Of a stretch of 64,000 bases of DNA, positions 6,773-46,086 are shown in pieces. How positions within the stretch are numbered: position 1 is the first letter of the stretch; the number at the start of each line of letters is the position of its first letter. Source of the stretch: Antedon mediterranea. Its lineage: Eukaryota; Animalia; Echinodermata. A program made the position numbers and the translations under genes. The notes beneath the pieces are model-generated. The model was not told where the DNA came from, made no database searches, and worked only from the letters and a program-made list of their open reading frames with translations. The DNA lies in NCBI RefSeq assembly GCF_964355755.1, contig NC_092677.1:27887175-27951174 (forward strand), given 5' to 3'.

Positions 6773-6899
6773 TGTCTTGCGAGGAGGCAGATCATTTTAT
6801 GCTACATTTCTGCGAGAAAAAAAACCAAAATGAGATTTAAATACATCAAGCAATTTAAATAAATCTTGTGTGTACAGTAATTATATTACCTGGGAGAAG

Positions 6900-15545: not shown

Positions 15546-15939
15546 TGAACTTTTATTTTACTAACAACATCTGCCGAGTGGATACAAATAAATCCTACAT
15601 TTTTACAAAATAAAGTCAAAACATTGACAAAAACAAAAGATTATCATCAGACTTGCAAGTATAAACACAAAGTACACTATGATTTAACAAAATCAAAAGA
15701 TCTTTCTTGATAAATCACACAAAACAAATAAGACTTTAAATAGAATATACACAAAATAACTTTACATACCAAAATAGCACAACACCAAAAACATAATAAA
15801 GCTGATTAACCTTTAAAATAGTCTTCAATGGAATAAGCTGATGATAGCCATGTTTATTTTCTTATTATTTGTACTACTGTAGACTAAGCTTTAAGGTTAT
15901 CAATCAGTTACTTACTGTCATCCGACTGAAGATGCTCAA

Positions 15940-16100
15940 AGTACTGTCTACACTATATTAAACTTTATGTGACAAAAAATATGATGTGCCCATATATGGA
16001 CATGATGATGTCAAATCACTAACAAATTTGGGCATATCACTACCATATTTGATCCCATCTTTTTTGTCAAAATAGTTTGACAAGGTGTAGATAAAGCTTT
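15940..16100. mobile_element. MITE family A copy
   Basis: ctgtctacactat...gtgtagataaagcttta with the family core. Confidence 0.7.
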
Positions 16101-17849: not shown

Positions 17850-17953
17850 TCAAACTAGTTTGACAAAAAGTGTGATGTGCCCAAATATGGTAGTGATATG
17901 ACATCATCATGTCCATATGGGCACATCACATTTTTTGTCACATAAAGTTTGAT
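17850..17953. mobile_element. MITE family A copy (truncated)
   Basis: caaactagtttgacaaaaagtgtgatgtgcccaaatatggtagtgatatg...cataaagtttgat. Confidence 0.7.
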
Positions 17954-21620: not shown

Positions 21621-22313
21621 AGTTTTTTTTCGATGTATAAGAACTACTGTATAATAACTGTAATCTCCAGAATTTAGCCTACTGATTTGATTGTATACAA
21701 ATTAATTCTATATGAATGTCAATGAAATGCATTACTATAGGCCTACATCATAAATCAGAGTTTTTAATTTATCAGGCTCCGCTAACATTATCATAGCACC
21801 ATCCGTGTCGTTATTTCCATCTTTTTAATCCATCCATTTTATTAATAATTCATTTTTCATCACCAAGTCATCATCATCAATTAATCAACATTATAGGCGC
21901 GCATGTAGGCCTCAGAAAAGATATTCAGCATTCAATTTGCTTGCATGATTTATTTTATATCTTATCTTATATGATTTTGTTAATAAATTAATTTCAATTT
22001 TGTTTTGTTTTATCTCTTTGTATTATGCTCAATGTTTATGAATGGAAATAAAGAAAGACATTACTAAAATCATGAAAATAGTTCGGTTCATCTTCTATTT
22101 GTCCTCGACCGAATTTTTCAAATGGTTTGATTACTATAAATGACATTTAATTTCATCAGGTTTATGATTAAAAGCAAACATTTGGGAAGGGAATCGAAGA
22201 AGAGAGAGATATATATATATATTCAGACGTAGACCTACGGACAGCAGCAGCATTTCATTCTAAGGTTGAAAAAATGTCTCAGGTTCATTTTATTTCATGC
22301 CTTTTATTTTTAC

Positions 22314-22479
22314 TAAAGCTGGGGTTCTCACTCAATCCCAAGCGATGGATTATTCAAATTTTAGTCGCTTGTCATGGTCAATGTGTCGTTGCGTTGCGTA
22401 CATCGTTATTGCGTTGCTTTGCGTACGTCGTTATTGCGTTGCGTCCTTGCGTTACATCGCTAGTGGGAACCAAGCTTTG
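22314..22479. mobile_element. Palindromic MITE family B (aagcttggttcccactag...ctagtgggaaccaagctt)
   Basis: Fold-back element with gacgcaacgcaag and gaccaatcacaagcga arms; about 16 copies or fragments in the window. Confidence 0.7.
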
Positions 22480-23797
22480 AACATGCATACATAGAACAGT
22501 GTTATTTTTATACTCTTATTTCTAGACTTCTAAAACACAACACAGTGAATGCTGCCTACAGGTACGTACGGAATGATGGATGCAACCGATTACAAAGTTT
22601 ATGTACAATAACACTTTTAAACAAGTGCCGTGTCTGCAAGCTCATTTCAAGAATAATTATAATTCATTTTAACCTCCTTGATTTATATATATATGAATAG
22701 ACATAGACAATGTATTCTTTTTTGCCTTTAACACGACGAATTCGAATACATTTCCCTCGAAATGTATTACAAAAGGAATCATGAAACGTAATTATGTGAA
22801 AATGAGTGGGGAATTGATTTCAAATTAATATCCATTATTCGTTATATAATTTAAATTATAACTAATAACCCGAAAATGTCATTTTGAAATTAATAAGCTA
22901 AATTTAACGTCTCATCAACTGAATCATTAGGTGTGATCTTATTAAGCGCGTGGCCGGCTATGCATACGGCCGCCGTGTGAACCTGAATAAAGTAAAACGT
23001 ATCCTTAAAATTTGCAACCATTAGTGAACCCATACATTATATAATATTTAATTTTCTGAATTATGCGGAAGTTTTACGTCCGTCATAATTTAAGCTCGGA
23101 TGTCAGCGTCGTGATTGGTCAAATTACTTGCATTTCGCGTACGTCCTTATTGCGTCATATACTTTCTATTGAAGATTCACACACACAAGGGATTATTCTA
23201 TAGTAACTATGTTAATTGTATTATTATAAAGCAATAACTATATGGCAATACAATAACTTTTGTTAATAAATATTTTAATAATAGTAAGCAAAATGAACGA
23301 ACGTTCGGCGACACCTTTAACAGCAACAACACTGCAATTCATTGTGACGATGAACGTTCGCGGCGACACCTTTAACAGCAACAACACTAGCAATACATTG
23401 TGGCGATGTTTGTCTGAAACAACTTATAGTAACATGTACTTAAATGACTACAGTTGATGTATCTTTATAATGAGAGAAAGAGGCAAATTAATAGCCTATG
23501 AGGACAGTTGGGTAAAATGTCAGTGCAATAAAGAAAACGTTATTCTCTCTCTTAGCAAAATAGTAGCAACAAATGCAAAAGGGGCAGCACTGACACACAA
23601 GATGTTTTGAATACTGTGCTGTATCGCCACATCTTCACCAGTATCATAGGATAATTCCGTAATACAGAATCACATGTGTATCACATGTGGCGCTGCATTG
23701 TGTCGTTTAAGGTCTAGATTATGGGCTATGATACTCAGTGTAGGCCCACATTATGAAACACATAATGATGCTGTACTATGATATTATAGGGACAATT

Positions 23798-24069
23798 AAG
23801 CTCGGTTCCCCTTAAAACGCAACGCAGGGACGTAAACGCAACTTAAAGCGTGGTTCCCACTAGCGACGCAAGGCAAGGACGTAACGCAACGCAAGTGAAT
23901 TGACCAATCACAAGCGATGGCTTATTCGCTTGTGATTGCTAACTGTCTATAACTTCGCTTGTAATTGGTTAAAACCAATGACCAATGACAAACTGTCGCT
24001 TGTCATTGGTCAACTCGCTTGCGTTGCGTTACGTCCCTGCGTTTTGTCTCCAGTGGAAACCAAGCTTTA
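23798..24069. mobile_element. MITE family B, compound copy (duplicated left arm)
   Basis: Two left termini (23798, 23846) and one right terminus (24069). Confidence 0.7.
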
Positions 24070-24209
24070 GATACACTTGACCAAGTGTGTGTTATGGAGG
24101 TAAAATAGGCCTACTAATTCATTTTGACCTTCCTTTTCGACATAACGAATAAAAATTACTTTTTTACATTAAAACAACGTGTACACTTACAACAAGAGCT
24201 TGAAAACCA

Positions 24210-24215
24210 TTTATT
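24210..24215 (-). terminator. Candidate polyadenylation signal of the peptide precursor gene
   Basis: AATAAA on the minus strand ~830 nt after the stop; another at ~24365. Confidence 0.35.
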
Positions 24216-25042
24216 GTTCATTTCGATTCTACATTGAAACTAAAGTAAACAAAATAACTCACACACACTTTTCAAATAAATATTATTCATAATAATGAAT
24301 TCTCAGTACAAAGTAATTTAATACTTAAACAAATAAATCCAATACTTTAATAGAAAAATAACCTTTTATTGAATGTATTTATACATAATGGACTATCTGA
24401 TTATATTCCGGTATCAGTGGTCGAATAAATGACGTCACATCAGTTGTCGAATAAATGACGTCACATTAGTGATTACATACCATTTAAAAATAAATCAATA
24501 AACCTCGCGATTTCCAGACATTTCAAGATATGTTATATAATTATTATTAATCTTTTTGACATTTATTTGTCAAAATATGTGTTTACATTAAATGTTCGTT
24601 TCTAGCGTTCTAAAAACGTCAGATACATTTCTTTTAACTTAGCTGCTGTATGTATTCCGTCGTATTGTTATGAGATTACCGACGTAAAGCCTGTAGTCAT
24701 TTAATTATTCTTCAAGACTATACATCAATTTCACTTAGAAAATAAGTAGGTATACTAGCTATTTCATTCTTATTAGTGTGCTGTTTCCTACGGTGAAACA
24801 ATCTCCAATCATTACAAGTTTGACAGTATAGTTTTCTCCACATTTCAAAATATTATGACCTCGATTGTCAAAATGGAACGGATATTGAAGCGATAATTAA
24901 GACGAGGAAAACACAAGACTCTGCTCAATTTAACATCAGTATGCAATCCACAGCTTTCTCTCCTTTTAAAGGTATCTTTTTTATTACATTTTAAATGTTT
25001 TTTTTTTAAATATTTTGTTATTAAATGCGCAAAAGAAAAAAT

Positions 25043-25123
25043 TTAATAGTCCGTGCATGTGTTGAGAAGAATTCTCCTTTCCTTGGCGCTCGACGTTAAC
25101 AGAATTTGCATCAGGCTCATAAG
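25043..25123 (-). CDS. Peptide precursor exon 5 (last)
   Basis: Acceptor atcttttcag|CTT; LMSLMQILLTSSAKERRILLNTCTDY*. Confidence 0.6.
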   Translation of the reverse strand, partial: LMSLMQILLTSSAKERRILLNTCTDY

Positions 25124-28100
25124 CTGAAAAGATAATTAATTCAAGATTAATTTTATTAATCGCTGAAGAACACAACAACCAAATCCTTACACCACAAGTG
25201 AAAGTATTATACACTACGTGACGACGCGTGCGCACAAAACACGATTATTACGTGTAACTAATCGAAACATAAACAAAACACACAATCAACAAGTCTCAAT
25301 ACCGTGTCACAATTGTATCACATGTGAGGTCTGTATTATGATGCTAGTGTTTAGGTAAAGGCGTCACATAGTACTGTACGTGACATTCAAGGATCATAAC
25401 CAAAAACAAGTGCGCTTTTGTATGGAATAATGGTTGGAGAGGGTGAACATTGTTTTCTGCTGTTTTCAGAGTTAGGTCTACTAATATTACTTAGGCAAAG
25501 GTAGATTAGGCTTAAAGATGTATTGTCCCCCCAAAAAACATGAACAAATGAAGCTTAATAAAATCAGACTTTAAATAGGCAATTTTTTTCAGTTTTAATA
25601 AAGTTTAAAAATAATTTCACTTATAAAAAGAGAAAAGAAACGTTTAATTTGAACCAAAAACCATTGTCTGACAGACATTTTTTCAGGTAAATAATTTTAG
25701 AGGGATCTTTAAAACCATGTGATTTGCCTGAAATATTATCGGCATCATTTTAAGAGTTCTTTAAATAAAATAAAAAACTACAGTATGTTTTCAATTCAGT
25801 TATACAGAATTATATTGGTTATCTTAAGTTTCAATTTGACATTATCCAGCAATAAAAACAATATATCACAGTAAGTATCAGGAATGATATACAAATATGA
25901 CATATTATGAAAATAAATGACACGGTACACTACTACTGTAGATTTTAAAAAGCGGCTTAACAGAAATATGATATATCAGGAAAAATAGAAATCAATAAGC
26001 TATAAAAAGCCATTAAGAAATACATCTGTTTTTGTCTATTAAGCTTGGTTCCCACTAGTGACGCAATGCAAGGACGTAGACGCAACGGAAGCGAGTTGAC
26101 TAATCACAACCGACTGTTCGAATAATCCTTGTGATTGGTCAAATCACTTACGTTGCGCTTAAGTCCTTGAGTTGCGTCTTTACGGAGAGCATGTCCATTT
26201 TAATTCAATATTAAACAATGACATAAACTTTCATATTGGATTTATAAAAATTAATTATTAATATTACATTTTTACCTGTTATTCCGACTATGTATTTGTG
26301 GGTTCAACTTTGACGGAGTTGGCAAACACATTTTTTTGACAGCATTTTTATTTTCATAGAAAATGTCAGACAAGGCAGATTGTATAAACATCAATTTCAT
26401 CTTAAAAAATTGATACTGCTCTAGAAATGAATGTCCGAGCAGAAAGATGATGTTCTTGTCAAAAACTAATAATGTCTGGTTTGAACTAAATATTATTCCA
26501 ACAACGTATTTCGAGATGTCAACGATGGATTACATACTATATTTCATAATGCTAAAACGGACATTTTATATGGACATCTTTGCTTTTATTTCAATTTCTA
26601 TCAAATTTCTTTCCATTATTTTTTTCATGATGAAATAATGGTATCTATCACTGTATATTATTTTGATAAATATTTGAGTGAGTTTCTTTTTCTTTCTAGA
26701 AAAAAAGCCTAAAAGTTAACGCGCGCGTACATTATTATGGCAATTGAATTCATACGCATGCGTGTAAAACTCGTATCATTAGTTTCACGCGCGCGTACAA
26801 CCACTTTAATTCTTATGTAAAAGTTATGTGCCTTTCTGTGGTGTATGTACACTTAAAACAATTTAACAAACGTAGAAATATAACTTAACCATCAAAATAT
26901 TATTTTTGTCATTCTCCGTAAATTTTAATTTGCTAATGTCCCAAATGAAACGGATCATTCTACTTTTTGACATGTCTTACGTATGTTTTTAAATAAAAAA
27001 ATGATAAGGCGTCAGACAAGTTACATTAACACCGATTGGCTAGAACATTTCCAGCACTGTTAAGTGACCTCAGAACGACGTATTTTCCCCAGTGTGAACA
27101 GGCCCTAAAGCAATGAACTCGCGTGAAAATCGACTTCACAGCCCATCTAACAAAACAATTACATAAGCATCCAATTATTGTTGAGAAGTATCAGATATGG
27201 TACGCAGTATTGATATTTGACAACATGTCATACTAACATTGTTAACTCGACTCTCATTCATTTTGAACATAAAAACTTGCCTTTTTACACCTTGATAGAT
27301 CTGATGAACTTTCAGTTTGCGTGGGTTCTTGCTCGAGGTGACCCTAAAAAGTAAGGTTGAAATTAATTATACCTATATTAGCAAAATAGTTTCAAGAACA
27401 TTATTAGAAAGCATTTGACGACGGTGAATAACCCCAAGTCGCGTTTGTATAGCCATTATGTTGGCCATTATTGTTTTTATCAAGAATTATTAGAAACGTG
27501 TTGCGTGTCTAGGAGCGTATGAGTAAAATATTTATCTTCATCGTCATCGTCATCATCACAATCATCTTCATCATCATAATTGTCGTCATCATCACCATCG
27601 TCGTCGTCATCATGATCATCCATCATCATCATTATCATCGTCATCGTGATCATCCATCATCATCCATCATCATGATCATTATCATCATTTTCATCGTCAT
27701 CATAATCATCATCCATCATCATCCATCATTTATCATCGTAATCATCTTCATCATCATCATCATTATTTTTAATATAAATGTTATCATAAGCTTTTGCTGC
27801 TGTTGTTGTAGTGATCGTTGCAATGGTATAATTACAACATTGTATTGTTTGTGTTTTTCATTTAAAATTTGAAATTACAAACCACAATTAAAGATGAAAC
27901 TTTACCTGGACACTTTCAGGAAACGATCGTTTTCTACAAAAATTTGCTAAAAAAAAGAAAAACGAAATCAATACGGTCATCGATTCTTTAGAAGGTAAAT
28001 GAAATGCGGAAATGATAAACAATACTAGAAGATGGTACACTACGAAGATCATTGACGTTTGCATTCGCATTGTCCAATAGTAAATTCATAGAGATTTTAT

Positions 28101-31100
28101 TTCTAAGCTCTGTTTACACCAATAAACTACTTTGACAAAAAAGTGTGATGTGCCCAAACATGGTATTGATATTTCCAAATATGGTAGTGATATGACATCA
28201 TCATGTCCATATGTGGGCACATCACATTTATTTTGTCACATTAAATTTGATAGTGTAGACAGAGCTTTAGCAAAAATTAAGCATTCCTTTCTAAAGCTTG
28301 ATTCCCACTTGGTTGGACGCAACACACACACAGAGACATAAGAGCAAGTAATTTGATCAACAACACGGGGAAATGGATCATTCGAACTGTCGCTTTTAAT
28401 TGGTCAACTTACTTGCCTTACACCTACAACGTTGTATTGTTGTTGCATCCAATTGGGAACCAGTCTTAAACTGTCCTCATTTCGATTGGCACGAAGCAAT
28501 AGAGCGTGACAGACACGCGCACACATTAATCTGTGACGTCATGACTAACTCAACTTCAACGATTTAGCGTGGATTGATTTGTCCACATGCGCACTGTCTT
28601 TCCGCTTTATTGCGCAGTGCAATCGTTATAATGGTTTATTTTTAAAGAAATTAAAACATCCATGGGTGATAATGTTGCGACAATCAACAAGAGCGGTCTC
28701 CCTGAAGAGACCATGACCCTCTTGATACGTCACTGAAAGATACACTTACGTAACATTGTTGGGTCTAATGACGCAATTCTGTTCAAACACCTACAGACAC
28801 AAGCTCTCGAATTACAACGAGAACAGGCCAGTTGTGCAGATTCTAAAAAAGGAAGAAAACATTGATTATTGCATAGGTCTAATATCATAACTTTAAGCAA
28901 AGAATAATAACGATCAAGTTAATCAAGTTTAGTTAAGTAAATACTATTTTTTTTAAACTATGAATCTTTTTTCCCTTGTTCTGTTTTCTAAAGCGTGGTT
29001 CCCATTAGAACGCAACGCAACGCAACGCAACGCAAGCGAGTTGACCAATGACACTGATAGTTCAAAATAATCCATCGCTTATCATTGGTCCTTGCGTTGC
29101 GTCCTAGTGGAAACCAAGCTTTAGGCCTAACCATAAATGTCATTAATTTATGCTATATCTTTGGATAGGTTTGAGTAGCCGTGTGGATTTGGAGTGTGGT
29201 GATTGGTCAGTTAAACCGCTATCTTGTCACGTTCCTAACAATACTGAAACATTTTACGAATTTATTCCACGTGCGCGAGATAATAACACCAGACATCATA
29301 TCGTCATAAACAAAATAATGAAATTTATATTTTAATCTACATTTCAGAGAAACATAAAAAAATGTATTAAATAAATTTAAATGTCAATAATTCCCTATTT
29401 TAGCCACGGGCTATTTTGTGGCATTATCCCGTCTCTCATGATAGTTTAAAAGTTTACAAAAACATAAAGTAAATTAAAGATTTTAACAGTAAATTAACTA
29501 CAACATACGTTTTACTTCACACAAAGTAATTAATATAAATACATTGCCAGAGGATAAAATTAAAAGTTAAGGTGGACGGTACGCGGCAATGGTTAAGATA
29601 ATTCATAATTATGAATTCACGTAGCAATCTGAATCATTTCCATTAAACCCCCGTAGTGTCCATTACAGAGATAATTGAACTGAAGATAAAAACATTAAGT
29701 TTTGTCGACCGATGTGGACGATATAAAAAAGACTAAAGATGTATATCGAATCAATTAACAAGTTTCAGTGAAATGCTTCTAATTGGACACGGTATTCGTA
29801 AGAAGATAGATATGAACAATAATTGAAAACATTTCGACGGAGGAATCTGTGTTCACGGAACAAGTGGTTCTCTTCTCTGATGTAGATTGTTATGATTTTT
29901 CTAATGATGTTGATACTTTCATTGTAAATAGTATACAGTACTATATTTTGAGTATCAAGATACAAGATACAAGTCTACTTTATTGTTAAAATCTTACAAT
30001 ATTGTTTTGTACCTTAGAAGAATAATTAAATAATACAAAGTGATAAAACTTAAATAAATGATAATACAATACAAGTTACTATCTTTTAAAGTTTTGATTA
30101 AATACATTGCATGTACAGTGTTGAAGATCTGAAACGGTTTTCACAATTCCTCAATCCTCTATATTTCTGACATAACATAGTCTCTGACTTTTTAAAGAAA
30201 CCTACAATTCATTCGATCGTTAGCAAACAATTGCACATATTCTATTCTTTTGAATGGCTCATACATCATACTGAGGATAATGAGAAAAGGAAACGCGACG
30301 GATAAGTCAAGGAAACGAGGAGAGAAATACAAATACAACAATGATCCTCAATAACAAGATAGAGTTATTTTAGAGTTAAAATGGTATAAAATGTTAATAC
30401 AATTGAAGGAGAAAGGCCGAGGAGATTATAAAAATACTAATTACAAAAGTAATACAATTCATGAAAAGTGGAATTCATAAAACAAGATAAAATGATATTA
30501 AAAACAGATTAGAAAATGTTAAAGTGATAGAAAATGTTGAAGTGATACAAAACCCGGCTAAAATTGAAACAAAATTACCATGAAATAATCATAATTTGAT
30601 GACGAAAAAAGAAGATTGTGAAATGATAAATTTATTTCACAATAAACAAACTATTATACAAATATGTGTAGAGGTTTTTCTTTGAAAGAGAATGAAGAGA
30701 AGCACTAGTTGACGCACATTGTGTTCACAAGGTCTTAGCCTTAAACACACTTATATAATAACTATCAAATAACACACTATCATCTTATAAAAACAAATCT
30801 TTTAATACATGGTTTAAAAATGTATTTATCAAGTTGATGTTTTGCCATCAAAATTGCATTTAGGGCCACATAAACGTCAGCCTAAAGCTAGTAAGTAATT
30901 GGGCCTGATAGTCACCACATTTTAGTCATAATAATTTTCGTTGGAATGTTCTTTTTGGATTAAAAACAAGATTAATTATGAATTTTTGACGTTGGGGTTC
31001 GTTGGTAAATGGTCATAACTTCCGGATGAAGATACAAAACAACTTTGAATGTTGAATATTTTAACATTTTGATGCACGCGCATATTTTATCATTGTGAAA

Positions 31101-34100
31101 TGCACGCACATCATTGTGATACATACGCGCATAAGTGTGATATGTACGCGCATATTTAGTTATATTCTTTTCAAAATGTATGATAACGATACAATTGTAT
31201 CGAATTCTTTTAAAAACTCATAATATTGTCTGACCCTTTTATATGATTTATTAAGAAGCAACGATAGTAAAACTAATTACTATAGGAAATGTTATAATGT
31301 ATCAAAGGAATTACATTTCTGAATTAATATAAAATTGCAGCAACACAAAGGAAAGAACACATTGTCACTTGCAATATAATCTCAAGTATCTAGTTGCAAA
31401 CACTTGTTTATTTAACAAAAAGGAATCATTCATTATTTTGTATTAGAAAAACATATTACGTCAATATTTGATACAATATTAGTTTTGCTTGAAGCGACCA
31501 TAATCTTGTTTTTTTATATTCAAAACGAAATAAATAGTCTTATCATTTAGAATCAAATTTACGAATTAGATTACAGTGATCTGTGTTGTCAGCGATAGCC
31601 CGGATGTAAATCTTTTTAATACCGTATATCAAATATCTAAAGGCATTTTATCTTTTCTTTTTCAATTCAATTAAATTTATTAATTTATAATTCAAAAATA
31701 TTAATATTATTACAAATTAGAAAACAATAATGATATAATATGAATAATTGCCATACAATACCCAGACATCATTAGGGCAATGGTTGATTGCAAAATGAAG
31801 CAGACATATTCTTGGAAAAGAAAAGAAAACTTTAAACTCGTTGTTAGTGCCTTGCAGCAGCTAAAAAAAATTATAAATACCAATTGACGATGTGTGTAAA
31901 CGCAAGGACGTACGCGCAATCACAAGCGACATTTCAGATAATCCATCGTGATTGGTCAAATTACTTGCGTTGCGCTTACGTCCATACGGTGGGAACCAAG
32001 TATATTACAAATTGGTAAATAGAACAAATGCTGCTGGCGTTTTTCTTTTTTTTGTTTGACAAAATCACATACTATTATATTATTGACGAAACTTAACAAC
32101 AAATGCATCAGTTTCGATTGTTTCCTTAGCAGTTTTACTACCGACATCATTAACTATTACTTAATTTAGAACACGTTTTTTTATTATTTTAGAAATCACG
32201 ACCAATATTCATTTGAAAAAATGCCTTATAAATAATCGAATGTCTGTTTTAATTTATTATATAGTAACACTACTTCAACACATTATTCACATTAATTTTC
32301 TAAATGCATCAACCGTAAATAACATTGCATAATATTATAAGAATTGCATGCAAAACCGTTACCAATGTTATCAATGCATTTTAAAACAAAATTTTGATTT
32401 TTAAATCCATTACGAATATGTATAATACATAAATCAAAGAATTGAAATACAGCCTGTATTGGGACTTCACTTCAGAAACAGTTTATGTATTCATCAGTAT
32501 GTATTTGTGTGTGTATTTAAGAAGTTCAAAGTTCATTTTGAAGGATACAATAACCACAATGCATTGAACTTCTTAATTTAAAAACTTTTACACCTGTGTA
32601 ATAAAATTGGCGCAGATTCAAACATTGTTTTTTACTGTCACCGGTGATGCGTTCAATATTTTTTTTCAAACATCTCGAAATCTGTCTACACTATTAAACT
32701 AGTCTGACGACAAAAGTGTGATGTGCCCAAATACAGTAGTGATATGGCTAAATATGGTAGTGATATGACATCATCATGTCCATATATGTTCACATCATAG
32801 TTTGATAGTGTAGACAGATTTCGAGATGTTTGAAAAAAATATTGAACGCATCACCGGTGACAGTAAAAAACAATACATAGACTGCCGAAGTGAAATAGTC
32901 AAAGTTAAGTTTTTTAAACGCCACAACTTAAATATTGCTTTCTGAATTATGGGGTTTAAAAAAAATTTAAACAATAACATTAGATCCTTACGGATCGGCA
33001 GTAAGTTGTGATTAGTCTTTGCGAGTGTGTTGCAAGAACTACGTGAAAACGAACGCTTCATGATGTGTAACGTAATATAATTATTACTGTCACGCGATGG
33101 TCCTCGCAAAGGGTGAACATCTACTACAAAAGCTACATTTGTGACGCCATACTTATAAGATAATGATAGGCATTGATCTATGCATATTATATTATTATGC
33201 ATTTCAAAACTTTAATTAAATATTGTTAGTAGGTTAACGTGATAAGATTTGTTTAGATGAAGTATCCTAATTGTAGGTTTTGATTTCTACAATCAAAAGT
33301 ATTTTATTTTTAAATATCGGTTTGCTGATCAACAAGCTCATTAGTTAACAAAACATTCTCACGTGATAACTCCATTTATGAATTATTTTAACTATTCATC
33401 ATGCTTCATTATTACTATTTTACTAATTGGTTTATTTATAGTTTCGATTAAGCCCATGGGCTGCTCCAGTCTGCGTCACAGCAACCAGCTAAAGCCTGGT
33501 TTCACCCGCAAGCGAATTGACCAATCACAAACGATGGATTTGTCGAATTGTCGGTTGTCATTGGTCAACTCGCTTGCTTACATAGACCCAATGTTGTCCG
33601 AAATGTTATAATTATACAGTATTTTTAAAGGATAAATGAAATTGCTTGTTCCTCTGCTTATACTGCCGATTTTTACAAGAAACTCAGTCAAAGAGACATG
33701 AGAAGTTATAAATAGTTTTCAATGCGAAAGGAGAACAATTTCAATATACATTTATCATTTAAAGTCGTATCACATACATATTTGGCATCAGCAATAGCAA
33801 ATAGGTTTGATGTCGGTTAGCAGTCAAATCAATTACATTTAATTCTGTAGTAAAGTAATGTATGCTTAAATACAAGATTGTTGGTTGATTACAATTTACT
33901 TAATTTATCATTTACTTTAACCATAGTTATTTATATACAGGATTTTCTAACATATTTGATAGATTGAAAAGGAAAAGCGTTGTGGAGACTTGAGTTAGAA
34001 AAATAAAAGTAATCATGCAATACGATTGATATATATCTCACGACAAACTAAGTTCTTTGATAGGATCCTAAAACAGTGAATATTTCCGAAACTTATAATG

Positions 34101-37100
34101 AGCTGGAGTAGTTTAGAGCAGTAATTTGTAGATATGTGGCAGGTTTTGAGGGGGAGTGTGTATAAATTGATACACATTTGTATTTTTATGTTTGTCTGGT
34201 GCTAAGCTAACGGAATAGACAAGTGTGTGTAATACAAAATGAACACCTAACTGTACATTAAGCCACCAATTAACCTATTCAAAATGTGCAAACAGAATTA
34301 ATTACAAGAGCTCACACTACAGTAAGTAAGTTAATGAACTGGACCTAGATATAAGTATCCTTCTAGATTGTAGCTTACACACATCACGTATCACGATAAA
34401 ATACAAAGACAAAAAGATGATGAATAAAAGTGGAAGATACTGTATATAAAATCAATATTTTATATGTTTTATAAAACATAATTCAATTTTAATTTATCAC
34501 CTTATGTGTTACATCGTAAATGCAAATTTTAATATATTTATCAAATACCAAAATAAACCATGTTGAGAAATGAAGCGATCAAAAGCTGATGAAAATGACA
34601 TGCATTTTGTAGGGCGCGCGTCGCGTCCACTTTCTGTGATATCACTATGGCATATTACTGACAGAATGTACGATAAAAGACGTATTGCAATTGCTTCAGA
34701 CAATTTTAAAGTTGATGCTAATTTTGGTAAATCTTAATTCTGCAATGCCGAAGACATCAAATGCCATTGGTTACGTCATATCTAATATTAGCAACCATTA
34801 TTCTTTCAAATACTGCGTTTTTTTAGCGTCAACCACTCGAGTCATCGAGAGTTAATATCCGTAGAAAGAAGTAACTAAGGTTACTTTAAAACATAAGATG
34901 ACAAAGATTATTCAAGTCAAATATGTACATTAAAATGATGTACCGCCAATAAATGCACGTAAGTATAATTAGTATTCGATGTTCTATCTATAATCGTGAA
35001 TGATCAAAAAGAATGCAACTTAAAAAATTTGTCACGTTTACCACATCCAGCCAAGATACCTAACAAAGAGGTATTATGGGTAATTTCTAGGCCTATTAAT
35101 ATTGTCATCGCCTTGTTCAGGTAAACTCAATCCTACATTACAGATTCGAAACATTACTTGTTATCTTTTAAGTTGCAAGAGAACTACTTTATAATGTCCT
35201 CCCTTTTCCATTCAAACAGAAAATAATTTCTACTAACTATTATGTATACATCTGCTTTACTATCATTTTATATGAAATTTCTAAATATTTTTAGATCATC
35301 GTTAATAATTTATATGGAAAATTTTAAGAAATATTTTTAAAGTGTCATTATACTTTTTCTATCAACTATTCATCATGAAGTAAAGCGTGAAAGACAACCT
35401 CTGTTTTCAATTAAATATAGAAATATTCTCTTTAACTTCTCATTTTATTTGTATTATTAAAATGATGATGGCGGTCTTATGAGAATTGATTCCGGTTAAT
35501 CCTGTTACTTGTCTAGGTCATAGAGGTTCAAAATAATTGCATTTCTGTTTACTACGGATTCTCTTTGTAATCACCGGTTTCGTTTGATTCCATGGACACT
35601 ATACATGAGTTTCACAAGAAATAGCTAATGCTGATGGAATGAGGTATGACAGTACTCGTGATAATGGCTAGTAAGTATAATAGCTATATCTAATTGTTTG
35701 TCATCCATTTGTAAGGTTTCTGTTTTCAAGTTCAAATTATATTTACTTAACCATTGATGGGAAATGTGTTGAATATTCGCTTTCATGTTTGAGCGCAGTA
35801 GGCTATCCTCCCACAAACTATTTTAGTTTTATTGTTCCAAATCTGACAATCAAAGCGTAATAAAGATTTCAAGTCTTTCTTTTTTTGGTCTAAATACTAA
35901 AAATAGAAATGTAGATGTTTATCCAAAATCGCAAACACCCTGTGGCAATTATTTAATGTATTTAATTTTAAATATTAATAACAACTATTAACAATTATGC
36001 TTTAGGTAACCGTCTGATTCAAAGATATTATTATGTTGACATTAAAACGTAACATTTAAAAAAAAATGTACATTTTCCAATTCCAAAACTTTCTTAGACA
36101 TTGCTTATGGGGGTAATTGAGATAAATAGGCTCAATTATATCTAAAGAAAAATATGCTTATTCCAAAATTATTGACGTTCAATCAAGATAGATGTTTGTA
36201 TAAGAACAAAAGAAAGACTATTTATTGATTTTGGTCAAACTCACTTTCCAAACAATAACTCAAGAAAAGTGATAAGAACAAGTATCAGCAAAACAAACAA
36301 AAATCATGGCCCTAGAAAAATGTTCCATCATAAGTAGGCCTACGCAAAAGAAAGCCATAAACCACACGAGGGCAAGCGTGTTCTATCATAAGTTAAGTAG
36401 GCCTATGCAAAAGAAAGTCATAAACCACACGAGGGCAAGTTAGCTACAGTTACGCGTGGTTCCCACTAGGACGCAACGCAAGGATGTACGGGCAACGCAA
36501 GCTAGTTAACCAATGACAAGCGACAGTCGAATAAATACATCGTTTGGTTAATTGGTCGAAACCTTTAGTGGTATCTAAAAAAGGAAGAAAATGGTCGTGG
36601 ATGGATAACAAACAAACAAACTGATCTAATAACGTTTTCCTCTTTGGTGTGATTGGAATCATAACTATGTAAAGTATATGAGTGTAGCGTATATCGAATA
36701 ACAATTGAATAACATTACATAGTCTGAACATAAAGCAACAGGATTTCTGTACGAATCTTTAGATAAATAGAAATATTGATGAGATGAAAGATGAATGCAA
36801 TGGATTGTATGTAAGTGCCAAATACACCTTTCCAATTATCTATCTCCTGCCGAGATTCAGCTCAAGTACGCTTTGCGTTTACACATGGCAAGATTTGCCG
36901 ACGACGACACCACAATGAACTTTTGGTAAAAACATTACACGCATGGATTAAAATACAAGGTTAAATCAACAACAAGCGCAAAAGTGGAGATTCGATTGAT
37001 CGCTCCTGAACGTAATCTTGAACATCATCACGTGACATGAAAGTCATATTTTTGCATCAATCATTGCCGTAGTGGACATTTCACTTACTAAGGTAGAAAG

Positions 37101-40100
37101 AAAGCTACAATCTATTCAACTCTGAATCGTTACTCTGATGCAACGATCAATCACTTCAACGTGCCCACTTTCAATACGCGTTTTAAGGCATTTCATTGAT
37201 GACGTCATCATTGGTCGAAATGACTTGTTTTGCTCATCATGGTCGTGTTCTTATAATTTAATAGTACTATTTTAAAATTTTAAATAAATTGTCGGAAATC
37301 ATGTTTATTTTTAGAGTAGAGTTCAAAATAAAAACCATTTAATTGGCTGTAATGAGGTGTTTACGCGCGCGTATAATTGTATTTATGTATTTAAAAATTA
37401 GCTTATTTACTCTTCTTGTAAAATTTGGGTTGTTGTTTGGTGGTTATTGAACTATTTTAAATTGGAAATTGACGAATATTTCTCTTTACTTACTACCAGA
37501 TTACAGCATTTTTTTTTGTTTAAAGGCTGTTTCTTGTAAAAAGACACAAACGAAAAATGTCAGAGAAAATCAAATGCCCGTTTTCAACCATTGTTATGAA
37601 TATTGTCGTTGTAAGCGCAACGCAACGAATTTGACCAATCACAAGCAATCGATTATAATGTCACTTTGTCATTGGTCAACTCGCTTGTTATGCGTTTACA
37701 TCTGCGTTACGTTCTAGTGGGAACCAAGCTTTAAGACGACGGATATGAATCGGATTTAATGTATTCAGAATTATACCTGGGCTTATATTTACGTGGAAAT
37801 AACGTTTCAGAACGCCCCCAACCTGTCCTCCGTCATTTTAATTTCTCTTTCTCCGGATTTAAAATGTCCGTTCCTGTTTATCCTTCGTGTGGGAGTTAAG
37901 ACAACTGTTCGTATTTTTAAGTATGTTCTTAAATTTGGACAATGTTCGTTAAGATGGATTTGTTGTCTAGTGGTTATTCAACTTATTTTTTGGGACTATG
38001 GATAATTTATTCTCTCACAAAGTAGACACTTAATGGTGCTTCAATGTGATGCTAAGTTTCAAACTGATAGTTTAATCTTTAAATGGGACAAATTGATAGT
38101 GTTGGTATGCACGAGAGATTGAAATACGATTACCTGATGAATCCGCTTTATACAATAATATTTAATATACTCTATAAATTTAATTAAACATAAAAACAAA
38201 TAATCTGTTCAATAATATAGACATTTGTATTAAAACGTGATAAAACTAAAATGTTCAATATGACTGAATTGGTCTACTAAAAGTAATTTATATTACTTAA
38301 TACAGTGAATCCACTATGTTATCGGTGGCGGCACGGATGATGACGTATTGGTTGAAGATTAAACCCGACGCTGCTTAGTACCCTCTCCTACTCAAAACCT
38401 TAACAAATGTACACGCGCGTCTAAAAGGCGATAGTGAGAGACGCGCGCCACTCGGCTACGATGTTGAGTATATAATCATTTCGCGCATGATCAGAGATAC
38501 TTTTTACTTGCGTAGTCGTGAGTGGATTCAACGAAAGCTGTTGTAAATTTGAGGACGGAGAAATTACTAAACTAATTCATTAATGATTAAATCACAAACA
38601 AATAGAAAAAAACAAGGAGATCGAAGACAAAATAGGAAAGATGTAGAGGTATGACAAAGATAAAGCAAGTCGAAATTATATTCTATTCATATCAACTAAC
38701 AGGAAAACTTTATTTGTTTTATCAAACAAATAAGGGACCTATTAAGCCAGGGAGTTGTAAAATATTATTATTTTACAACTCCCTGATTAAACTAAATACA
38801 TACCTGCATCTGCATGTTCAAAATGATATGCGCAATTCATATCTATCTGAGAAGCAACCATTTAATGTATATGACGTAATGATTCTCTTAAGATTTGAAC
38901 AGATTGATAGAGTCTGTCATTCCCAGATGAAGCGGCATAAATCACATAAAATGAAGTAGACGACAGAGAATGATAATAGATTGTAACAAAACTACGCTAA
39001 GAAACAATACCTTAAAACCACTAAAGTAAATTGATTTTCGATTAGATGCATAGACATTTCCTAAACGTATGTGACGACAAGGTAAAATATTCATATTTTG
39101 AAGACATTTTCAAGTCTGCAAAATCGTTTTAAACCATTCTTTTTTGGATACGAAATATTTGTATTAGACACTCAAATATTAATAAAAAAAATCCTACAGC
39201 ATTCAACATGAAATAATTGATGATTGAACAACTCTAAAATGTATATAGGAAATGGTTTTTTTTGTATCTATTATGTTGTGTTTATTGTTTTATGTTTTTA
39301 TGTAAAAGGGTCCTGCGAAAACAGAAGTGTAAACTTCTCTATGCAGGATCCTTGCCATCATTTATGCTATGAAACTATATTTATAAAGGATGAGTAAAAT
39401 AAATGTGAATGTGAGAATATCAACAGTTTTTAACTTAAATATAAGGTGGACGTAAATGAGGCATGGTAAAAAAGACAAAGAATGTAGAGAGCCTGATATA
39501 TTATGCATTGGTATAGTAACTGAATATTTAACGCGTTTATATAAGACCTGGTAAAAAGATGTATATTACTTAACCTAACCTATTATATTAGGCCTATTTT
39601 GATAGCAAACATCTTGATGCTGATTGGTAAATGGTCTTAAACAATATTTTGTTTTATAATTTTAATTTCAAACACGAATTATTTGGAACGTATTTATGAC
39701 CGTAAATCATAAATACATAATATATTACCTCTTTCACGTCGCCTAGCGAAACTCTGGAGTTTCCACACACCACCGGGAGTTCCAGAATTTTGCTAGGCGA
39801 CGTGAAAAAAAATGTTAAGGTTCTGTCTACATTATCAAACTTTATGTGCCAAAAAATATGATATATCCATACATAATTTCCCAATTCACATTTATTTACT
39901 CATCCTTTATAAATATAGTTTCATAGCATAAATGATGGCAAGGATCCTGCATAGAGAAGTTTACACTTCTGTTTTCACAAGACCCTTTTACATAAAAAAC
40001 ATAAAAGAATAAACACAACATAATAAATACAAACATGGAATTGATGATGTCGTATTACTACCATATTTAAACATATTACTACCATATTTGGGTATTTGTC

Positions 40101-41679
40101 AAACTACTTTGATAGTGAAGACAGAGCTTAAGAAATGAAATATCAACGGCTTAGTTTGATGAACCTACTGTTACCCTGTCAAATCGTTCTGTTCAACTTA
40201 CAGATGATTTAGTCATTATTTCATTACATTATTAACGAAATCAATAATAGTAATAATTAAATTACACTATGATCGCAATCAATAGGTAGGCTCCAAGTGG
40301 GATTGTAATGGAGACTTTCTTCCATTCCCTAATCAATACACTGCCACACCTGTTTTTCAAGACAGTCTTGTTTAGATTGCTTATGTGTTAATGACGTTTT
40401 ACTTGTTTTATCAAGCAGGACGTTCCAATCTTGATTAAGTCGTGTTTTCTTTTTCAATCTTAGCAGACCTTTCCGAGTTAGAAACTCAATCTTGATTATA
40501 AGTCGTGTTTTCTTTTTCAATCTTAGCAGACCTTTCCGAGTTAGAAACTCAATCTTGATTATAAGTCGTGTTTTCTTTTTCAATCTTAGCAGACCTTTCC
40601 GAGTTAGAAACTCAATCTTGATTATAAGTCGTGTTTTCTTTTTCAATCTTAGCAGACCTTTTCGAGTTAGAAACTCAACCCTGGTTGGGTCGACCCTTTG
40701 TTCACTCTGAGTTCAAATCTCGGTTGGACTATATCTAGAAAACTATACTGCATACTCTTCATGGTTGGACCGATTTGTTTCACTCGCTAGAACTTTTTTT
40801 CGAACGAGTTCAAAAATCGATTTGCACGCTTTTTGAGTTAATCTTAGCAGTTAGAATCTCGGTTTGCACACTTTTGGCAGAATTTCCATCGTTAATATAG
40901 GTTCGACCGATTTTTTTTAATTATAGCAGTTCGAATCTCGGTTGGTTGGGTTTTTTTATCTCCTGAAATTTTTTTCAATTTTTACTTTTTCTCATAGTAG
41001 TCATGAATCTTGTCTTTAAATGTCATATGAGCAGATTGTCACCTTTGGGGAAGTGACATTCTCTGATTTAACCATTTCTAATTGATAGGTCCTAATGCTG
41101 TATTATTTCCTCATTAGATGATCCACACTGGGCGGATCACGTTGTTAGTAACTGTCTGCTTACGCTGATTTTATGTACTATGCGTGCCTTTCAGAAAATA
41201 ATATCTCGTTATATTAATTTCGCGTTGTTGACATTTCTATCAACGAATTAATAAAGCCATGGGACAGCAGACACTTTTGAATGACACCCGCTAACAACAC
41301 CTTTCTTGCAATGTTTTCTTAGTGCTACATTTTAATAGATAAACATTTTACCGAGCTGTCTTGGTAAATTAAAAACACAAGTTGTTGATGTACTTAAGTA
41401 CTTAAAGCATTTAAGTTAATTAATAATGCTAAAGTTCTGGTAATTTTTAAGTGAAAGCTACACTGATTCCATCGAAAAAAAGAACTATTTTCAACATTGT
41501 ATACTTAATCCAATTAAACATTGTCATTGGACTTCGTCCAGGAAATTTTAAACTTACTTAATAACATCAACAATAATTTCAGAATAAAAAAAGATTTAAG
41601 AACAAAACTTACCTATATGTGTTAGCAGCAAACTAAGAACCAAGACAAGTCCTAATTTGGTTGGTGATATTACAAGCAT
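25043..41679 (-). CDS. Secreted cysteine-rich peptide precursor (neuropeptide/hormone/defence-peptide-like), 114 aa, family unassigned
   Basis: Exons 41613-41679, 28750-28842, 27906-27946, 27281-27343, 25043-25123 join in phase (1,1,0,0) to MLVISPTKLGLVLVLSLLLTHIESA-QLACSRCNSRACVCRCLNRIASLDPTMLPNFC-RKR-SFPESVQGHLEQEPTQTESSSDLSRCKKLMSLMQILLTSSAKERRILLNTCTDY*. TATA box upstream of exon 1. Confidence 0.72.
26040..26181. mobile_element. MITE family B copy
   Basis: aagcttggttcccactagtgacgcaatgcaaggacg... Confidence 0.7.
27281..27343 (-). CDS. Peptide precursor exon 4
   Basis: Acceptor ctttttag|GGT; GHLEQEPTQTESSSDLSRCKK; donor AAG|gcaagt (GC-AG). Confidence 0.6.
27535..27765. repeat. Degenerate (CAT)n microsatellite
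   Basis: catcat/cgtcat triplets in intron 3 of the peptide gene. Confidence 0.9.
27906..27946 (-). CDS. Peptide precursor exon 3 (contains RKR cleavage site)
   Basis: Acceptor tttcttttttttag|CA, donor CAG|gtaaag; (P)NFCRKRSFPESVQ. Confidence 0.72.
28104..28269. mobile_element. MITE family A copy, next to a family B copy (28293-28468)
   Basis: aagctctgtttacacc...gtgtagacagagcttta. Confidence 0.75.
28750..28842 (-). CDS. Peptide precursor exon 2 (Cys-rich mature peptide)
   Basis: Acceptor ttcttccttttttag|AA, donor TAC|gtaagt; (E)SAQLACSRCNSRACVCRCLNRIASLDPTML. Confidence 0.75.
28990..29122. mobile_element. MITE family B copy
   Basis: aagcgtggttcccattag...ctagtggaaaccaagcttta. Confidence 0.75.
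32624..32874. repeat. Family A MITE whose inverted repeat extends ~56 bp into flanking DNA
   Basis: attgttttttactgtcaccggtgatgcgttcaatattttttttcaaacatctcgaaatctgtctacacta and its near-exact reverse complement (one T-run differs by a base) at ~32807-32874. Confidence 0.85.
36451..36570. mobile_element. MITE family B fragment, preceded by a ~50-bp direct repeat (36328-36438)
   Basis: gcgtggttcccactaggacgcaacgcaagg...; upstream aagtaggccta.gcaaaagaaag.cataaaccacacgagggcaag x2. Confidence 0.6.
37612..37733. mobile_element. MITE family B copy (left end lost)
   Basis: ...ctagtgggaaccaagctttaa. Confidence 0.65.
39261..40131. repeat. ~150-bp inverted repeat pair (39261-39410 / 39884-40033); second copy interrupts a family A MITE (39818-40131)
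   Basis: Near-identical reverse complements including gggtcctgcgaaaacagaagtgtaaacttctctatgcaggatcct and an aataaa tail, resembling a retroposon 3' end. Confidence 0.8.
39732..39807. repeat. 76-bp hairpin / mini-MITE
   Basis: tttcacgtcgcctagcgaaactctgga ... tccagaattttgctaggcgacgtgaaa. Confidence 0.75.
40426..40679. repeat. 63-bp minisatellite x4, probably inside a Helentron-like remnant ending ~41070
   Basis: Unit caatcttgattataagtcgtgttttctttttcaatcttagcagacctttccgagttagaaact; downstream hairpin tgtcac...gtgaca (~41037-41059). Confidence 0.85.
41613..41679 (-). CDS. Peptide precursor exon 1 (signal peptide)
   Basis: acaataATG CTT GTA...CAT ATA G|gtaagt; MLVISPTKLGLVLVLSLLLTHI, one basic residue then a hydrophobic core. 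Confidence 0.75.
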
Positions 41680-41784
41680 TATTGTTGTATTGTTCAACAA
41701 CACTACACTGAGCCGCCGCGAACCTTAATCACAACTATGGTATCTCTGCTTTATTTCTCAAGTAACTATCAAATGCAGTTCCAC

Positions 41785-41965
41785 CCTATAACTCCGCCGC
41801 CGCATCCCTGCTTTAAATATAAATGTTTTATTCTACATCAAATAGTAGTTTAGCCCAGGGGGCGTGCTTTAGTGATTCCAGCTGAAATGCAACGAACCAA
41901 CCAGTGTCGCCCTTTCTTGCATAATGGGTGTGTTTACTTGGTTTTAGTAACCATGGTAATGTCAC
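41785..41965 (-). promoter_or_regulatory. Core promoter of the peptide gene
   Basis: TATTTAAA (41812-41819, minus) ~25-30 nt before an Inr-like AGTT (~41790) in a GC-rich patch; X-box-like GTAACCATGGTAAT at 41947-41960. Confidence 0.55.
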
Positions 41966-42088
41966 AAGTCAATCATGTATGGGTTTGCGTAAGTAAAGAT
42001 ATAAAGATAAGTGTAAATTATTGGAGAGAAAAAGCAATACATCTTCGATACCTTATTTAAATGTTTATATGTAGGTCTGCGCCTAATA

Positions 42089-42247
42089 AGTTGGTTTTCC
42101 CTAGGACGCAACGTAAGGATCTAAGCGCAACTTGATTTGACCAATCACGGCTCGATGGAACGTCTGAACTATCACTTGTAATTGGTCAACGAATTTGCAC
42201 TGCGCGTACGCTATTAGATTATTGTGTTCAAGTGGAAACCAAGGTTT
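42089..42247. mobile_element. MITE family B copy
   Basis: aagttggttttccctaggacgcaacg...agtggaaaccaaggttta. Confidence 0.65.
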
Positions 42248-43243
42248 AGTGTGCCTAGATTTGTTTTGTATTAAGAGCACGAAACACATTAATATTTCTA
42301 ATTAAATTTAATTTCAAATGTCATTTATGTATTTTATTATATTGCATATATATGTTTACCTAAGTGGATGACTAACTCAAAATCCTTTCATTGACCAACA
42401 ACGTATCTTTATTTTTCAGCTGAAATTTGCATTTTTATGATGGTTAAATTGTCACAATGGATATGGGAGCTTTACTTTGGTACAGTCATTGCTCACACAC
42501 GGTCACTCACGTTTTCCAAGAAAATTAATTAATATTCTGCCATTTTAAAATTTCTTATAAATGTTGACACCGTATGAACCAGGAAAAATAATTCGAATTT
42601 TTTTAATGACGTAACTACGTCGTCAAATCATTGCATCATTTTTCTGCGATGATTTCCAGAGATACATCTGGATGCTATTGAATATGCGCGTTCATTTCTT
42701 GATATAGACAGTTTAATAATATCAATAACAATAACTTACCTTTTTCCAAATTGAATAATATATTTGACTGATGACGTAATAGAGTCTACACTTCATAACT
42801 TCGCTATACACGATACGACGCAAAATGGCGACGAACTCGTGTCTTTGAGATTTGCCGACCGCTCTAAATCTTGATGATTTAAAAAAATACTGAAAATGAA
42901 AACTTTCAGCAGAATTTCAGGTTTTAATACATACTATTGACGTAGACATTTTTGTTTTTTACCAACAAATGAATGCATATTGATTGTTTTATCTGGAGAG
43001 GAAATCAGAAATATAAAATATATTGGTGCAGTAACTTGATAACCTATTTTAATACAAACCACAAACAAACTGTTGGATGCGTGGTTACGTAGACAGTGTA
43101 ATGAAAACAACATAACATGTTCTTGTGTGTACGTCATAATATCAAACACAGTAAATGTTTCAAGAAATGTAATGAAATGAAGAAAAGAACATTTTTATGG
43201 TCACATATTGAAACATTCATATTTAAAAACATAATGGTTGTAA

Positions 43244-44954: not shown

Positions 44955-45098
44955 AAGTGTGGTTCCTACTAGCGACGCAACGCAAGCGAGTTGACCAATC
45001 ACACGCGAATGTTCGAATAATCCATCGTTTGTGATTGGTCAAATCACTTTGCGTTGCGTTACGTCCTTGCCCTGCGTCCTAATGGGAACCAAGCTTTA
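44955..45098. mobile_element. MITE family B copy
   Basis: aagtgtggttcctactagcgacgcaacgcaag...aatgggaaccaagcttta. Confidence 0.75.
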
Positions 45099-46086
45099 TT
45101 GTCAAACCAAAGGTCTCACCAAAATGTGACACCCGGTTCTCACGACAAATACGCGCGCGTCTCATCTTATCCGGCGGGGTGTGGCCAACATATTAATTAG
45201 TTTTTTATATCGCCCTACAACGAATCCTGGCTGGTATAGACCTAACCCATATCTGCCTCCTAACCACTGACATACAAGTTTACTTTTTAATCATAGTAAT
45301 GTGCTCACGTGCTATGAGGCGTTATTTTCCACATAATACTCTAAACATGCGGCTAATTTAAACAGCTTTTGTTACATATTTCACATTATATGAAGCGCCT
45401 ATTACTAATTGTTAATAGCTTCTATCCAAAGCCCTAACAAGAAAGTTATTTTTACAAACGTTATAACGTCTTATATGTCTAGCCTGCGGAAATATACTAA
45501 TCTGCAATTATTGTACAATTTGGCTAATTTGTGATCACTAATCCTTAATTATTATATGAGTTTGTTAAATTGTCAGGCTCACATTGCTTTTGATATCACA
45601 TATTTTGTCAATAAAACGGTTTCGTAATTAGACCTTTAGGCCTTTTAGGTAAACTCGAAACCTGATACGTGTATGATCAATATTGAGTTTAAAATGTAAC
45701 CAATATCCATACATTGTTAGGCTTATCTATTTATATTAGATGCAATATTATACTAATACAGCAGCAAGGATCGATCGATTACCCAATCCTTCTGTGAGAC
45801 CAATTTCATACATTTATTGCAGCTCAAAAGAAACGCACGTGTTAACAGAACAGCCGCGCGGGTATCCGTTTTTTTAAGATAGACGCATGCGTACCTGCTG
45901 TATAAGCTGACGCTTTCGATTCGCGGGAAAAAAAAACGCCTACAGGAAAATCGGCATAATTTACGACCACCACCAAAGACAACACCACACGTCAACAATA
46001 ATGACGATGTTGACAAATCAAATTTATTAGTATTAAAAGTAAAGAAGGCAACCTCCAACAGCAAATGTTTGTTTTATAGAAAATTA

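What the first reader, a model, noticed from the sequence alone, without database searches (positions are those of the whole stretch)
25043..41679. Hidden 5-exon gene encoding an unassigned six-cysteine secreted peptide precursor
Seen: five micro-exons (67, 93, 41, 63, 81 nt) spread over 16.6 kb of apparent gene desert splice in phase to a 114-aa ORF. It reads signal peptide ending ...HIESA, then QLACSRCNSRACVCRCLNRIASLDPTMLPNFC, RKR, an acidic/Ser-rich spacer and a C-terminal segment bracketed by two Cys (C-x24-C). A TATA box sits upstream of exon 1. Established: signal + peptide + basic convertase site is the prohormone layout; N-terminal Gln is usually cyclised to pyroGlu; a two-Cys associated peptide occurs in AKH-type precursors. 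Inference: a 32-residue, three-disulfide peptide with spacing C-x2-C-x4-C-x-C-x-C-x15-C. I cannot match that spacing from memory to orexin, trissin, insulin/relaxin, calcitonin, eclosion hormone or defensins, so it may be an undescribed neuropeptide, hormone or defence-peptide family.
Basis: partly seen in the sequence, partly recalled or inferred. Interest (0 to 1): 0.88.

Follow-up and report, generated by a model that had tools for sequence, protein, structure and literature searches.

The report
Unnamed six-cysteine feather-star peptide precursor
This is a real, spliced five-exon feather-star gene, held in public annotation only as 'uncharacterized', whose protein is likely cut to release a small six-cysteine signalling peptide that matched no peptide family I could check.

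Summary
The five exons are in the sequence (exon 4 has a GC donor) and splice to 114 aa, identical to RefSeq XP_071958142.1 of Antedon mediterranea, 'uncharacterized'. Contigs of one run join exon 1 to 2 and 2 to 3 directly, at depth 92-162 against 2-4 in the introns; the other two junctions are supported indirectly. So the gene is annotated but unnamed. Its layout (hydrophobic N-terminus, 32-residue six-Cys peptide, RKR, acidic spacer, Cys pair) and all ten listed language-model neighbours (nine named neuropeptide precursors, none above 0.87) fit a prohormone. No homologue turned up in protein databases, Pfam or PDB, and it is absent from the 2022 crinoid catalogue. Orexin, eclosion hormone, insulin and trissin spacings are not met. 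Arthropod trissin is the closest in layout, sharing four of six cysteines loosely. The pyroglutamate start is doubtful. Conservation, processing, tissue and receptor are untested. Best reading: a neuropeptide or peptide-hormone precursor of an undescribed family (0.55). Orphan precursors are common in crinoids, so interest is moderate.

The parts
41812..41823 (-). TATA-like element
   Evidence: sequence; about 20 nt upstream of the end of the exon-1 contig; function not shown
41680..41802 (-). probable 5' UTR, no ATG inside
   Evidence: 187 loose letters of the 217-nt X1 contig, assumed colinear
41613..41679 (-). coding exon 1: residues 1-22, hydrophobic signal-like stretch; phase-1 intron of 12,770 nt follows
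   Evidence: hydropathy peak 2.66 at residues 10-20
28750..28842 (-). coding exon 2: end of signal region and five of the six Cys (Q26 codon starts at 28834)
27906..27946 (-). coding exon 3: sixth Cys, RKR site (27935-27927), start of acidic spacer
27281..27343 (-). coding exon 4: acidic Ser/Thr-rich spacer, C86, KK; GC donor
   Evidence: RefSeq identity; indirect depth support
25043..25123 (-). coding part of exon 5: hydrophobic segment, RR, C111, stop
   Evidence: depth 162 at 25042 in X1
24198..25042 (-). probable 3' UTR of about 845 nt, AATAAA at 24215-24210
   Evidence: X1 contig 24198-24982 at depth 212 ends 12 nt past the hexamer; a hint only, contigs cannot show an end

Best explanation
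The gene is spliced into an mRNA for a 114-residue protein that is likely a neuropeptide or peptide-hormone precursor of a family not yet described, predicted to release a 32- or 33-residue, three-disulfide, non-amidated peptide that would act on a cell-surface receptor. Shown: exons, two splice junctions directly, the protein sequence. Inferred: signal peptidase cuts after S24 or A25; a prohormone convertase cuts at RKR (58-60) and carboxypeptidase trims it, leaving a free C-terminal Cys (no Gly, so no amide); pyroglutamate only if the cut is after A25. The rest (acidic spacer plus C86-x24-C111, with KK and RR inside) would be a co-released associated peptide, perhaps a folding or sorting aid. 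A GPCR is the likeliest target by analogy with other precursors whose peptide follows the signal directly.
For: Spliced, high-depth contigs. Layout signal-peptide-RKR-acidic spacer (pI 4.25 for 61-86). Of the ten ESM Atlas rows listed by features, nine are named neuropeptide precursors (CCAP, GnRH, galanin, neuromedin B, spexin, CCHamide, neuropeptide S) and one is a hypothetical chordate protein, scores 0.84-0.87, with no single family preferred (same picture for residues 24-62, 0.75-0.81; one source of evidence, below the 0.9 bar). Other crinoid precursors also end in a Cys pair: luqin C-x10-C, kisspeptin-2 C-x27-C (counted by eye). No second copy in the window and no paralogue among 33 candidates scored, which fits a hormone gene better than an expanded defence family. 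Peptide model mean pLDDT 75.8, helix 10-23.
Against: No orthologue found, not even from other crinoids, although most named crinoid precursors are conserved across two or three species; so constraint on the peptide versus the spacer is untested. A dedicated 2022 screen of this species did not list it. No amidation signal. Net charge about +2.7 also fits a defence peptide. The five models of the peptide ranged from pLDDT 49.7 to 75.8, and the whole-protein model was poor (47.2). Tissue of expression unknown; one spliced run only.
Confidence: 0.55

Rival explanations
1. It is a diverged member of a known cysteine-rich neuropeptide line: most likely a deuterostome counterpart of arthropod trissin, or a relative of the crinoid orphan PCNP6 or of orexin.
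For: Crab trissin follows the signal peptide directly, is 29 aa with six Cys, begins with a few residues then C-x2-C, and has Asn-Phe at the same distance from its end (PMC8449533, passage); cockroach trissin is non-amidated (PMC12604039, passage). The peptide matches C-x2-C-x3/4-C-x3-C near its start; random placement of six Cys gives this 0.4% of the time, and a loosened PCNP6 pattern likewise 0.4%. A 2018 review legend says trissin receptors do not sort into separate protostome and deuterostome clades (PMC5818035). An orexin cluster is rank 4 for residues 24-62, at only 0.76.
Against: The full trissin spacing with its CC pair is not met; nor are ambulacrarian orexin or eclosion hormone spacings. 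The 0.4% figures are flattered: I loosened the patterns after seeing the peptide and tried seven. A 2024 paper states that no orthologous deuterostome trissin receptor is known (PMC11087051, passage). PCNP6 has four Cys and is amidated; Antedon already has an orexin.
Confidence: 0.17
2. It is a defence (antimicrobial or deterrent) peptide made as a precursor with an acidic pro-piece that neutralises a cationic, disulfide-braced helix until cleavage.
For: Peptide pI 8.7, charge about +2.7, next to a spacer of charge about -4.5; six-Cys antibacterial peptides occur in marine invertebrates (turgencins, PMC7024374, search listing only); lack of detectable homologues fits fast evolution.
Against: Single copy as far as tested; modest charge; language-model neighbours are neuropeptide precursors, not defensins; no Pfam or PDB match.
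Confidence: 0.13
3. It is a small secreted eight-cysteine protein that stays in one piece, or in disulfide-linked chains, and acts as a pheromone, matrix or paracrine factor; the 32-mer is then not the unit.
For: Eight Cys allow pairs across RKR; KK (87-88) and RR (104-105) could yield linked chains as in insulin-type processing (analogy).
Against: RKR followed by Ser is a good convertase site (established knowledge); the spacer is acidic and unstructured in the model (low confidence); six Cys is an even number on its own; the insulin A-chain CC-x3-C-x8-C is absent.
Confidence: 0.1

Closest known systems
Arthropod trissin
   Same: Peptide directly after the signal, about 26-32 aa, six Cys, C-x2-C start, no amide, Asn-Phe just before the last residue.
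   Different: Trissin is C-x2-C-x3-C-x3-C-x7-CC; this is C-x2-C-x4-C-x-C-x-C-x15-C with no CC. Deuterostome trissin receptors are disputed in print.
Crinoid orphan precursors PCNP2-20 (Aleotti 2022, PMC9793003), above all Anneissia PCNP6
   Same: Signal plus basic sites, no known homologue outside crinoids; PCNP6 peptide starts with Gln and has C-x-C-x4-C-x3-C.
   Different: PCNP6 has four Cys, is amidated, is set off from the signal by a basic site and has no C-terminal Cys pair; no listed PCNP is this protein.
Ambulacrarian orexin-type precursors
   Same: Six-Cys peptide next to the signal, followed by a basic site; holds a C-x4/5-C-x-C core (18% by chance).
   Different: Orexins end in Gly for amidation and have a different spacing; Antedon's own orexin is another protein.
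Echinoderm eclosion-hormone-type precursors (np11, np15)
   Same: Six Cys, secreted.
   Different: The peptide lies at the C-terminus after an acidic spacer, is 45-57 aa, and has C-x3-C-x2-C-x11/12-C-x3-C spacing.

Membership tests
Neuropeptide/peptide-hormone precursor (general kind) | N-terminal signal peptide | tested here: met
   Hydropathy peak 2.66 over residues 10-20 after a Lys; no SignalP run, cut site S24 or A25 unresolved
Neuropeptide/peptide-hormone precursor (general kind) | Basic convertase site bounding a short peptide | tested here: met
   RKR 58-60, also KK 87-88 and RR 104-105
Neuropeptide/peptide-hormone precursor (general kind) | Peptide more conserved than spacer across species | tested here: inconclusive
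   No orthologue recovered
Neuropeptide/peptide-hormone precursor (general kind) | Made in neurons or endocrine cells, processed, activates a receptor | not testable with these tools
   Needs in situ hybridisation, peptidomics, receptor assay
Trissin | Six-Cys non-amidated peptide directly after the signal | tested here: met
Trissin | Spacing C-x2-C-x3-C-x3-C-x7/8-CC | tested here: not met
   only the first four positions fit, with one extra residue
Trissin | Activates a trissin-type GPCR | not testable with these tools
   Papers disagree on whether deuterostomes have one
Ambulacrarian orexin | C-terminal Gly for amidation | tested here: not met
   Peptide ends in Cys before RKR; orexin feature
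Ambulacrarian orexin | Spacing C(x)C-x4/7-C-x5-C-x-C-x6-C | tested here: not met
   pattern read
Eclosion-hormone type | C-terminal peptide with C-x3-C-x2-C-x10/13-C-x3-C-x8/14-C | tested here: not met
   sea cucumber sequences
Insulin/relaxin type | B chain C-x11-C and A chain CC-x3-C-x8-C | tested here: not met
   No adjacent Cys pair in the protein; crinoid examples; no Pfam hit
PCNP6-type crinoid orphan | Four-Cys amidated peptide C-x-C-x4-C-x3-C between basic sites | tested here: not met
   Six Cys, no Gly, C-x2-C; only a loosened pattern fits. No direct alignment was run
Defensin-like or other Cys-rich antimicrobial peptide | Sequence or fold match to a known scaffold | tested here: inconclusive
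   No Pfam or PDB sequence hit; fold searches gave no informative match
Defensin-like or other Cys-rich antimicrobial peptide | Antimicrobial activity | not testable with these tools
   Needs a bench assay

The most novel reading that the evidence does not exclude
The peptide is the missing deuterostome counterpart of arthropod trissin, or the ligand of one of the orphan bilaterian peptide receptors, with two of its six cysteines moved so far that sequence searches cannot see the link; it would then date that signalling system to the bilaterian ancestor and name a ligand to test.
Probability: 0.12. Interest if true: 0.75.

Novelty: new variant of a known kind. Interest (0 to 1): 0.42.

Why it matters
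Crinoids are the sister group of all other echinoderms, and echinoderm peptides have supplied missing links between vertebrate and protostome signalling systems (PMC5818035, passages). An expressed precursor with an unmatched three-disulfide pattern gives a concrete peptide to synthesise and screen against orphan receptors, and possibly a new disulfide scaffold. If it proves crinoid-only it is one more orphan beside the 19 of 20 PCNPs for which the 2022 paper found no homologue in other echinoderms, which is modest.

Tried and rejected
No RNA holder is on record as such; X1 is a guess supported by its spliced contigs. One search's joint table was filled by repeats and showed no exon junction. 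Protein searches: 1 of 1 candidate passed, itself; 1 of 33, itself; 0 of 3 among shorter proteins; these need shared exact 5-mers. HMMER over 1.84 billion representatives gave 2 hits: itself and P0002, a 658-aa tandem-repeat sequence that I rejected as a composition match. Metagenome contigs: 0 of 266 pattern matches confirmed. Pfam: no family for the four exon pieces scanned or the whole protein. PDB by sequence: two weak exonuclease hits (E 0.18, 0.61), rejected; none for exon 2 alone. Fold searches with the peptide model: no Foldseek match at E<=0.001, best Z 2.9 to helical repeat proteins, uninformative; Atlas structure rows likewise. Sea cucumber Ajnp14LP (31 aa, six Cys) looked promising but has C-x-C-x2-C-x-C-x2-C-x8-C and no basic site layout. 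Two 63-nt GT-donor candidates for exon 4 were dropped in favour of the GC-donor exon that matches RefSeq. Full-text search for the accession and three peptide strings found no paper; only 'PCNP6' matched. Ophiuroid supplements gave no hit for six short strings, without a positive control; spiralian supplements gave none for three of five terms, and I viewed 2 of 7 'PNFC' places, both neuroparsin. Three look-ups of earlier scan findings returned nothing. No complex prediction was run, as no receptor candidate was in hand.
Full report
Observation. A GT-only search missed exon 4; the GC donor has the otherwise strong context AAG|gcaagt. Joined, the exons give 345 nt and 114 aa with Cys at 29, 32, 37, 39, 41, 57, 86 and 111 and RKR at 58-60; intron phases are 1, 1, 0, 0. 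A search with the open frame over exon 2 returned one protein, labelled uncharacterized protein of Antedon mediterranea; it is XP_071958142.1, alone in its cluster and identical to the joined product. The gene is therefore annotated but unnamed.

Expression. Five runs hold the region; none is on record as RNA and X1 is guessed to be. I laid three runs on 22301-42300 and three on 28520-28990. In X1 a 326-nt contig of depth 162 covers exon 2 and continues with 230 letters whose nearest 30 are the end of exon 3; a 217-nt contig of depth 92 continues from exon 2 with the letters of exon 1; intronic pieces have depth 2-6; X2 and X3 run straight through. The last two junctions are indirect: 230 letters fit exon 3, exon 4 and 126 nt of exon 5, depth 162 recurs at 25042, and the exon 4 bin has depth 17.5 against 15.3 plus background expected. 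A contig at 24198-24982, depth 212, stops 12 nt past an AATAAA, and a TATA-like run lies about 20 nt before the other end; contigs cannot prove ends, so these are hints of a transcript of about 1.3 kb. This is one run from one study, tissue unknown.

Anatomy. Residues 9-19 are hydrophobic. The cut site is uncertain: after A25 the -3 residue is Glu, which the -3/-1 rule disfavours, while after S24 it is Ile (established knowledge, SignalP not available). The pyroglutamate is thus only one option. Residues 26-57 have mass 3560 Da reduced, pI 8.7, charge about +2.7; residues 61-86 have pI 4.25; KK and RR lie at 87-88 and 104-105. There is no Gly before RKR, so no amide. A single-sequence model of the 32-mer has mean pLDDT 75.8 (five models 49.7-75.8) and a helix at 10-23; the whole protein modelled poorly. 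From the helix I infer that C37 and C41 could pair with C29 and C32, and C39 with C57; I could not inspect the coordinates.

Relatives. None was found: 1 of 33 candidates, itself; 0 of 3 shorter ones; among 1.84 billion representatives only itself and a tandem-repeat sequence; nothing in metagenome contigs, Pfam or PDB; fold searches uninformative. The window has no second copy. The ESM Atlas lists ten rows by features, nine of them named neuropeptide precursors from unrelated families at 0.84-0.87; by the tool's own calibration that is a lead for the general kind and names no family. The missing crinoid orthologue counts against the reading, or reflects gaps in annotation and the weak power of short queries; I cannot tell which.

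Literature. Aleotti 2022 (PMC9793003; abstract, passages, sections 7 and 36, supplementary file 2 read in full apart from one cut run, string searches of 7 files with working positive controls) does not list this protein. Chen 2019 (PMC6586643; passages and the overview sheet, two cells cut) has no precursor with this spacing by eye. Semmens 2016 (PMC4772807; passages only) and Zandawala 2017 (PMC5627052; passages and a supplement string search without control) describe none in what I saw. A full-text search for the accession and peptide strings found nothing; nine searches were run in all, over open-licence papers only. So 'not in print' holds only for these searches.

Comparison. Orexin, eclosion hormone, insulin/relaxin, PCNP6 and trissin each fail a defining feature (and membership table). 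Trissin works most like it in layout: crab trissin follows the signal directly, has 29 aa and six Cys (PMC8449533, passages), and cockroach trissin is non-amidated (PMC12604039, passages). Four of six Cys fit with one extra residue; the CC pair does not. Random placement gives the loosened pattern 0.4% of the time, but I loosened it after seeing the peptide and tried seven patterns, and PCNP6 fits equally well. The receptor evidence conflicts: a 2018 legend has trissin receptors mixing protostome and deuterostome sequences (PMC5818035, passages), a 2024 paper says no deuterostome orthologue is known (PMC11087051, passage), and a 2021 paper calls lophotrochozoan trissin receptors orphans (PMC8557429, passages and supplement search). 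All cross-family comparisons were by eye or by spacing pattern; no alignment with those sequences was run.

Verdict. A real, expressed, apparently single-copy gene. Most likely a neuropeptide or peptide-hormone precursor of an undescribed family (0.55); a far-diverged trissin, PCNP6 or orexin relative (0.17); a defence peptide (0.13); an uncut or multi-chain secreted protein (0.10). Processing, disulfides, tissue and receptor are all inferred.

Noticed in passing
window 47883-63616, minus strand: Multi-exon MEGF8 orthologue ending about 6 kb upstream of the peptide gene; the frame at 47886-48734 matches MEGF8 chains in PDB at E 1e-47, PSI repeats at 58631-59443. Useful as a synteny anchor.
   Followed up: partly
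window 2867-6796, minus strand: C2H2 zinc-finger gene with a 676-codon open exon; only weak Pfam zinc-finger hits below cut-off.
   Followed up: partly
window 27280 (intron 4 donor): GC-AG intron in the peptide gene; a GT-only exon finder misses exon 4.
   Followed up: yes
window 19502-20159, minus strand: Frames that look like the C-terminal part of a LINE reverse transcriptase (my recognition; Pfam gave no hit).
   Followed up: partly
window 8030-8194, 10063-10199, 15933-16091, 17850-17953, 28099-28277, 32624-32874, 50366-50526, 56473-56638, 61171-61299: Dispersed family of short, partly palindromic elements built on a 21-bp unit, MITE-like, with very high summed depth in all runs.
   Followed up: no
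window 23844-24071, 26031-26178, 28987-29102, 31917-31983, 36450-36534, 37612-37737, 44972-45106: Second dispersed repeat family containing AACGC runs.
   Followed up: no
window 40426-40678, 59968-60304, 8772-8891, 27538-27763: Tandem repeats (63 bp x4, 111 bp x3, 38 bp x3.2) and a TCA microsatellite in intron 3; they explain several spurious ORFs.
   Followed up: no
window 39261-39417 and 39878-40033: 157-bp inverted repeat pair, 95% alike, 460 bp apart in intron 1: possible non-autonomous DNA transposon.
   Followed up: no
window 41805-41758, minus strand: Short upstream ATG frame of 15 codons starting 3 nt beyond the end of the exon-1 contig; would be an upstream ORF if transcription starts further up.
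   Followed up: no
PMC9793003 supplementary file 2: Anneissia PCNP6 has C-x-C-x4-C-x3-C, recalling the cystine-stabilised helix of endothelins (C-x-C-x7-C-x3-C, recalled); unlinked to any family in that paper.
   Followed up: no
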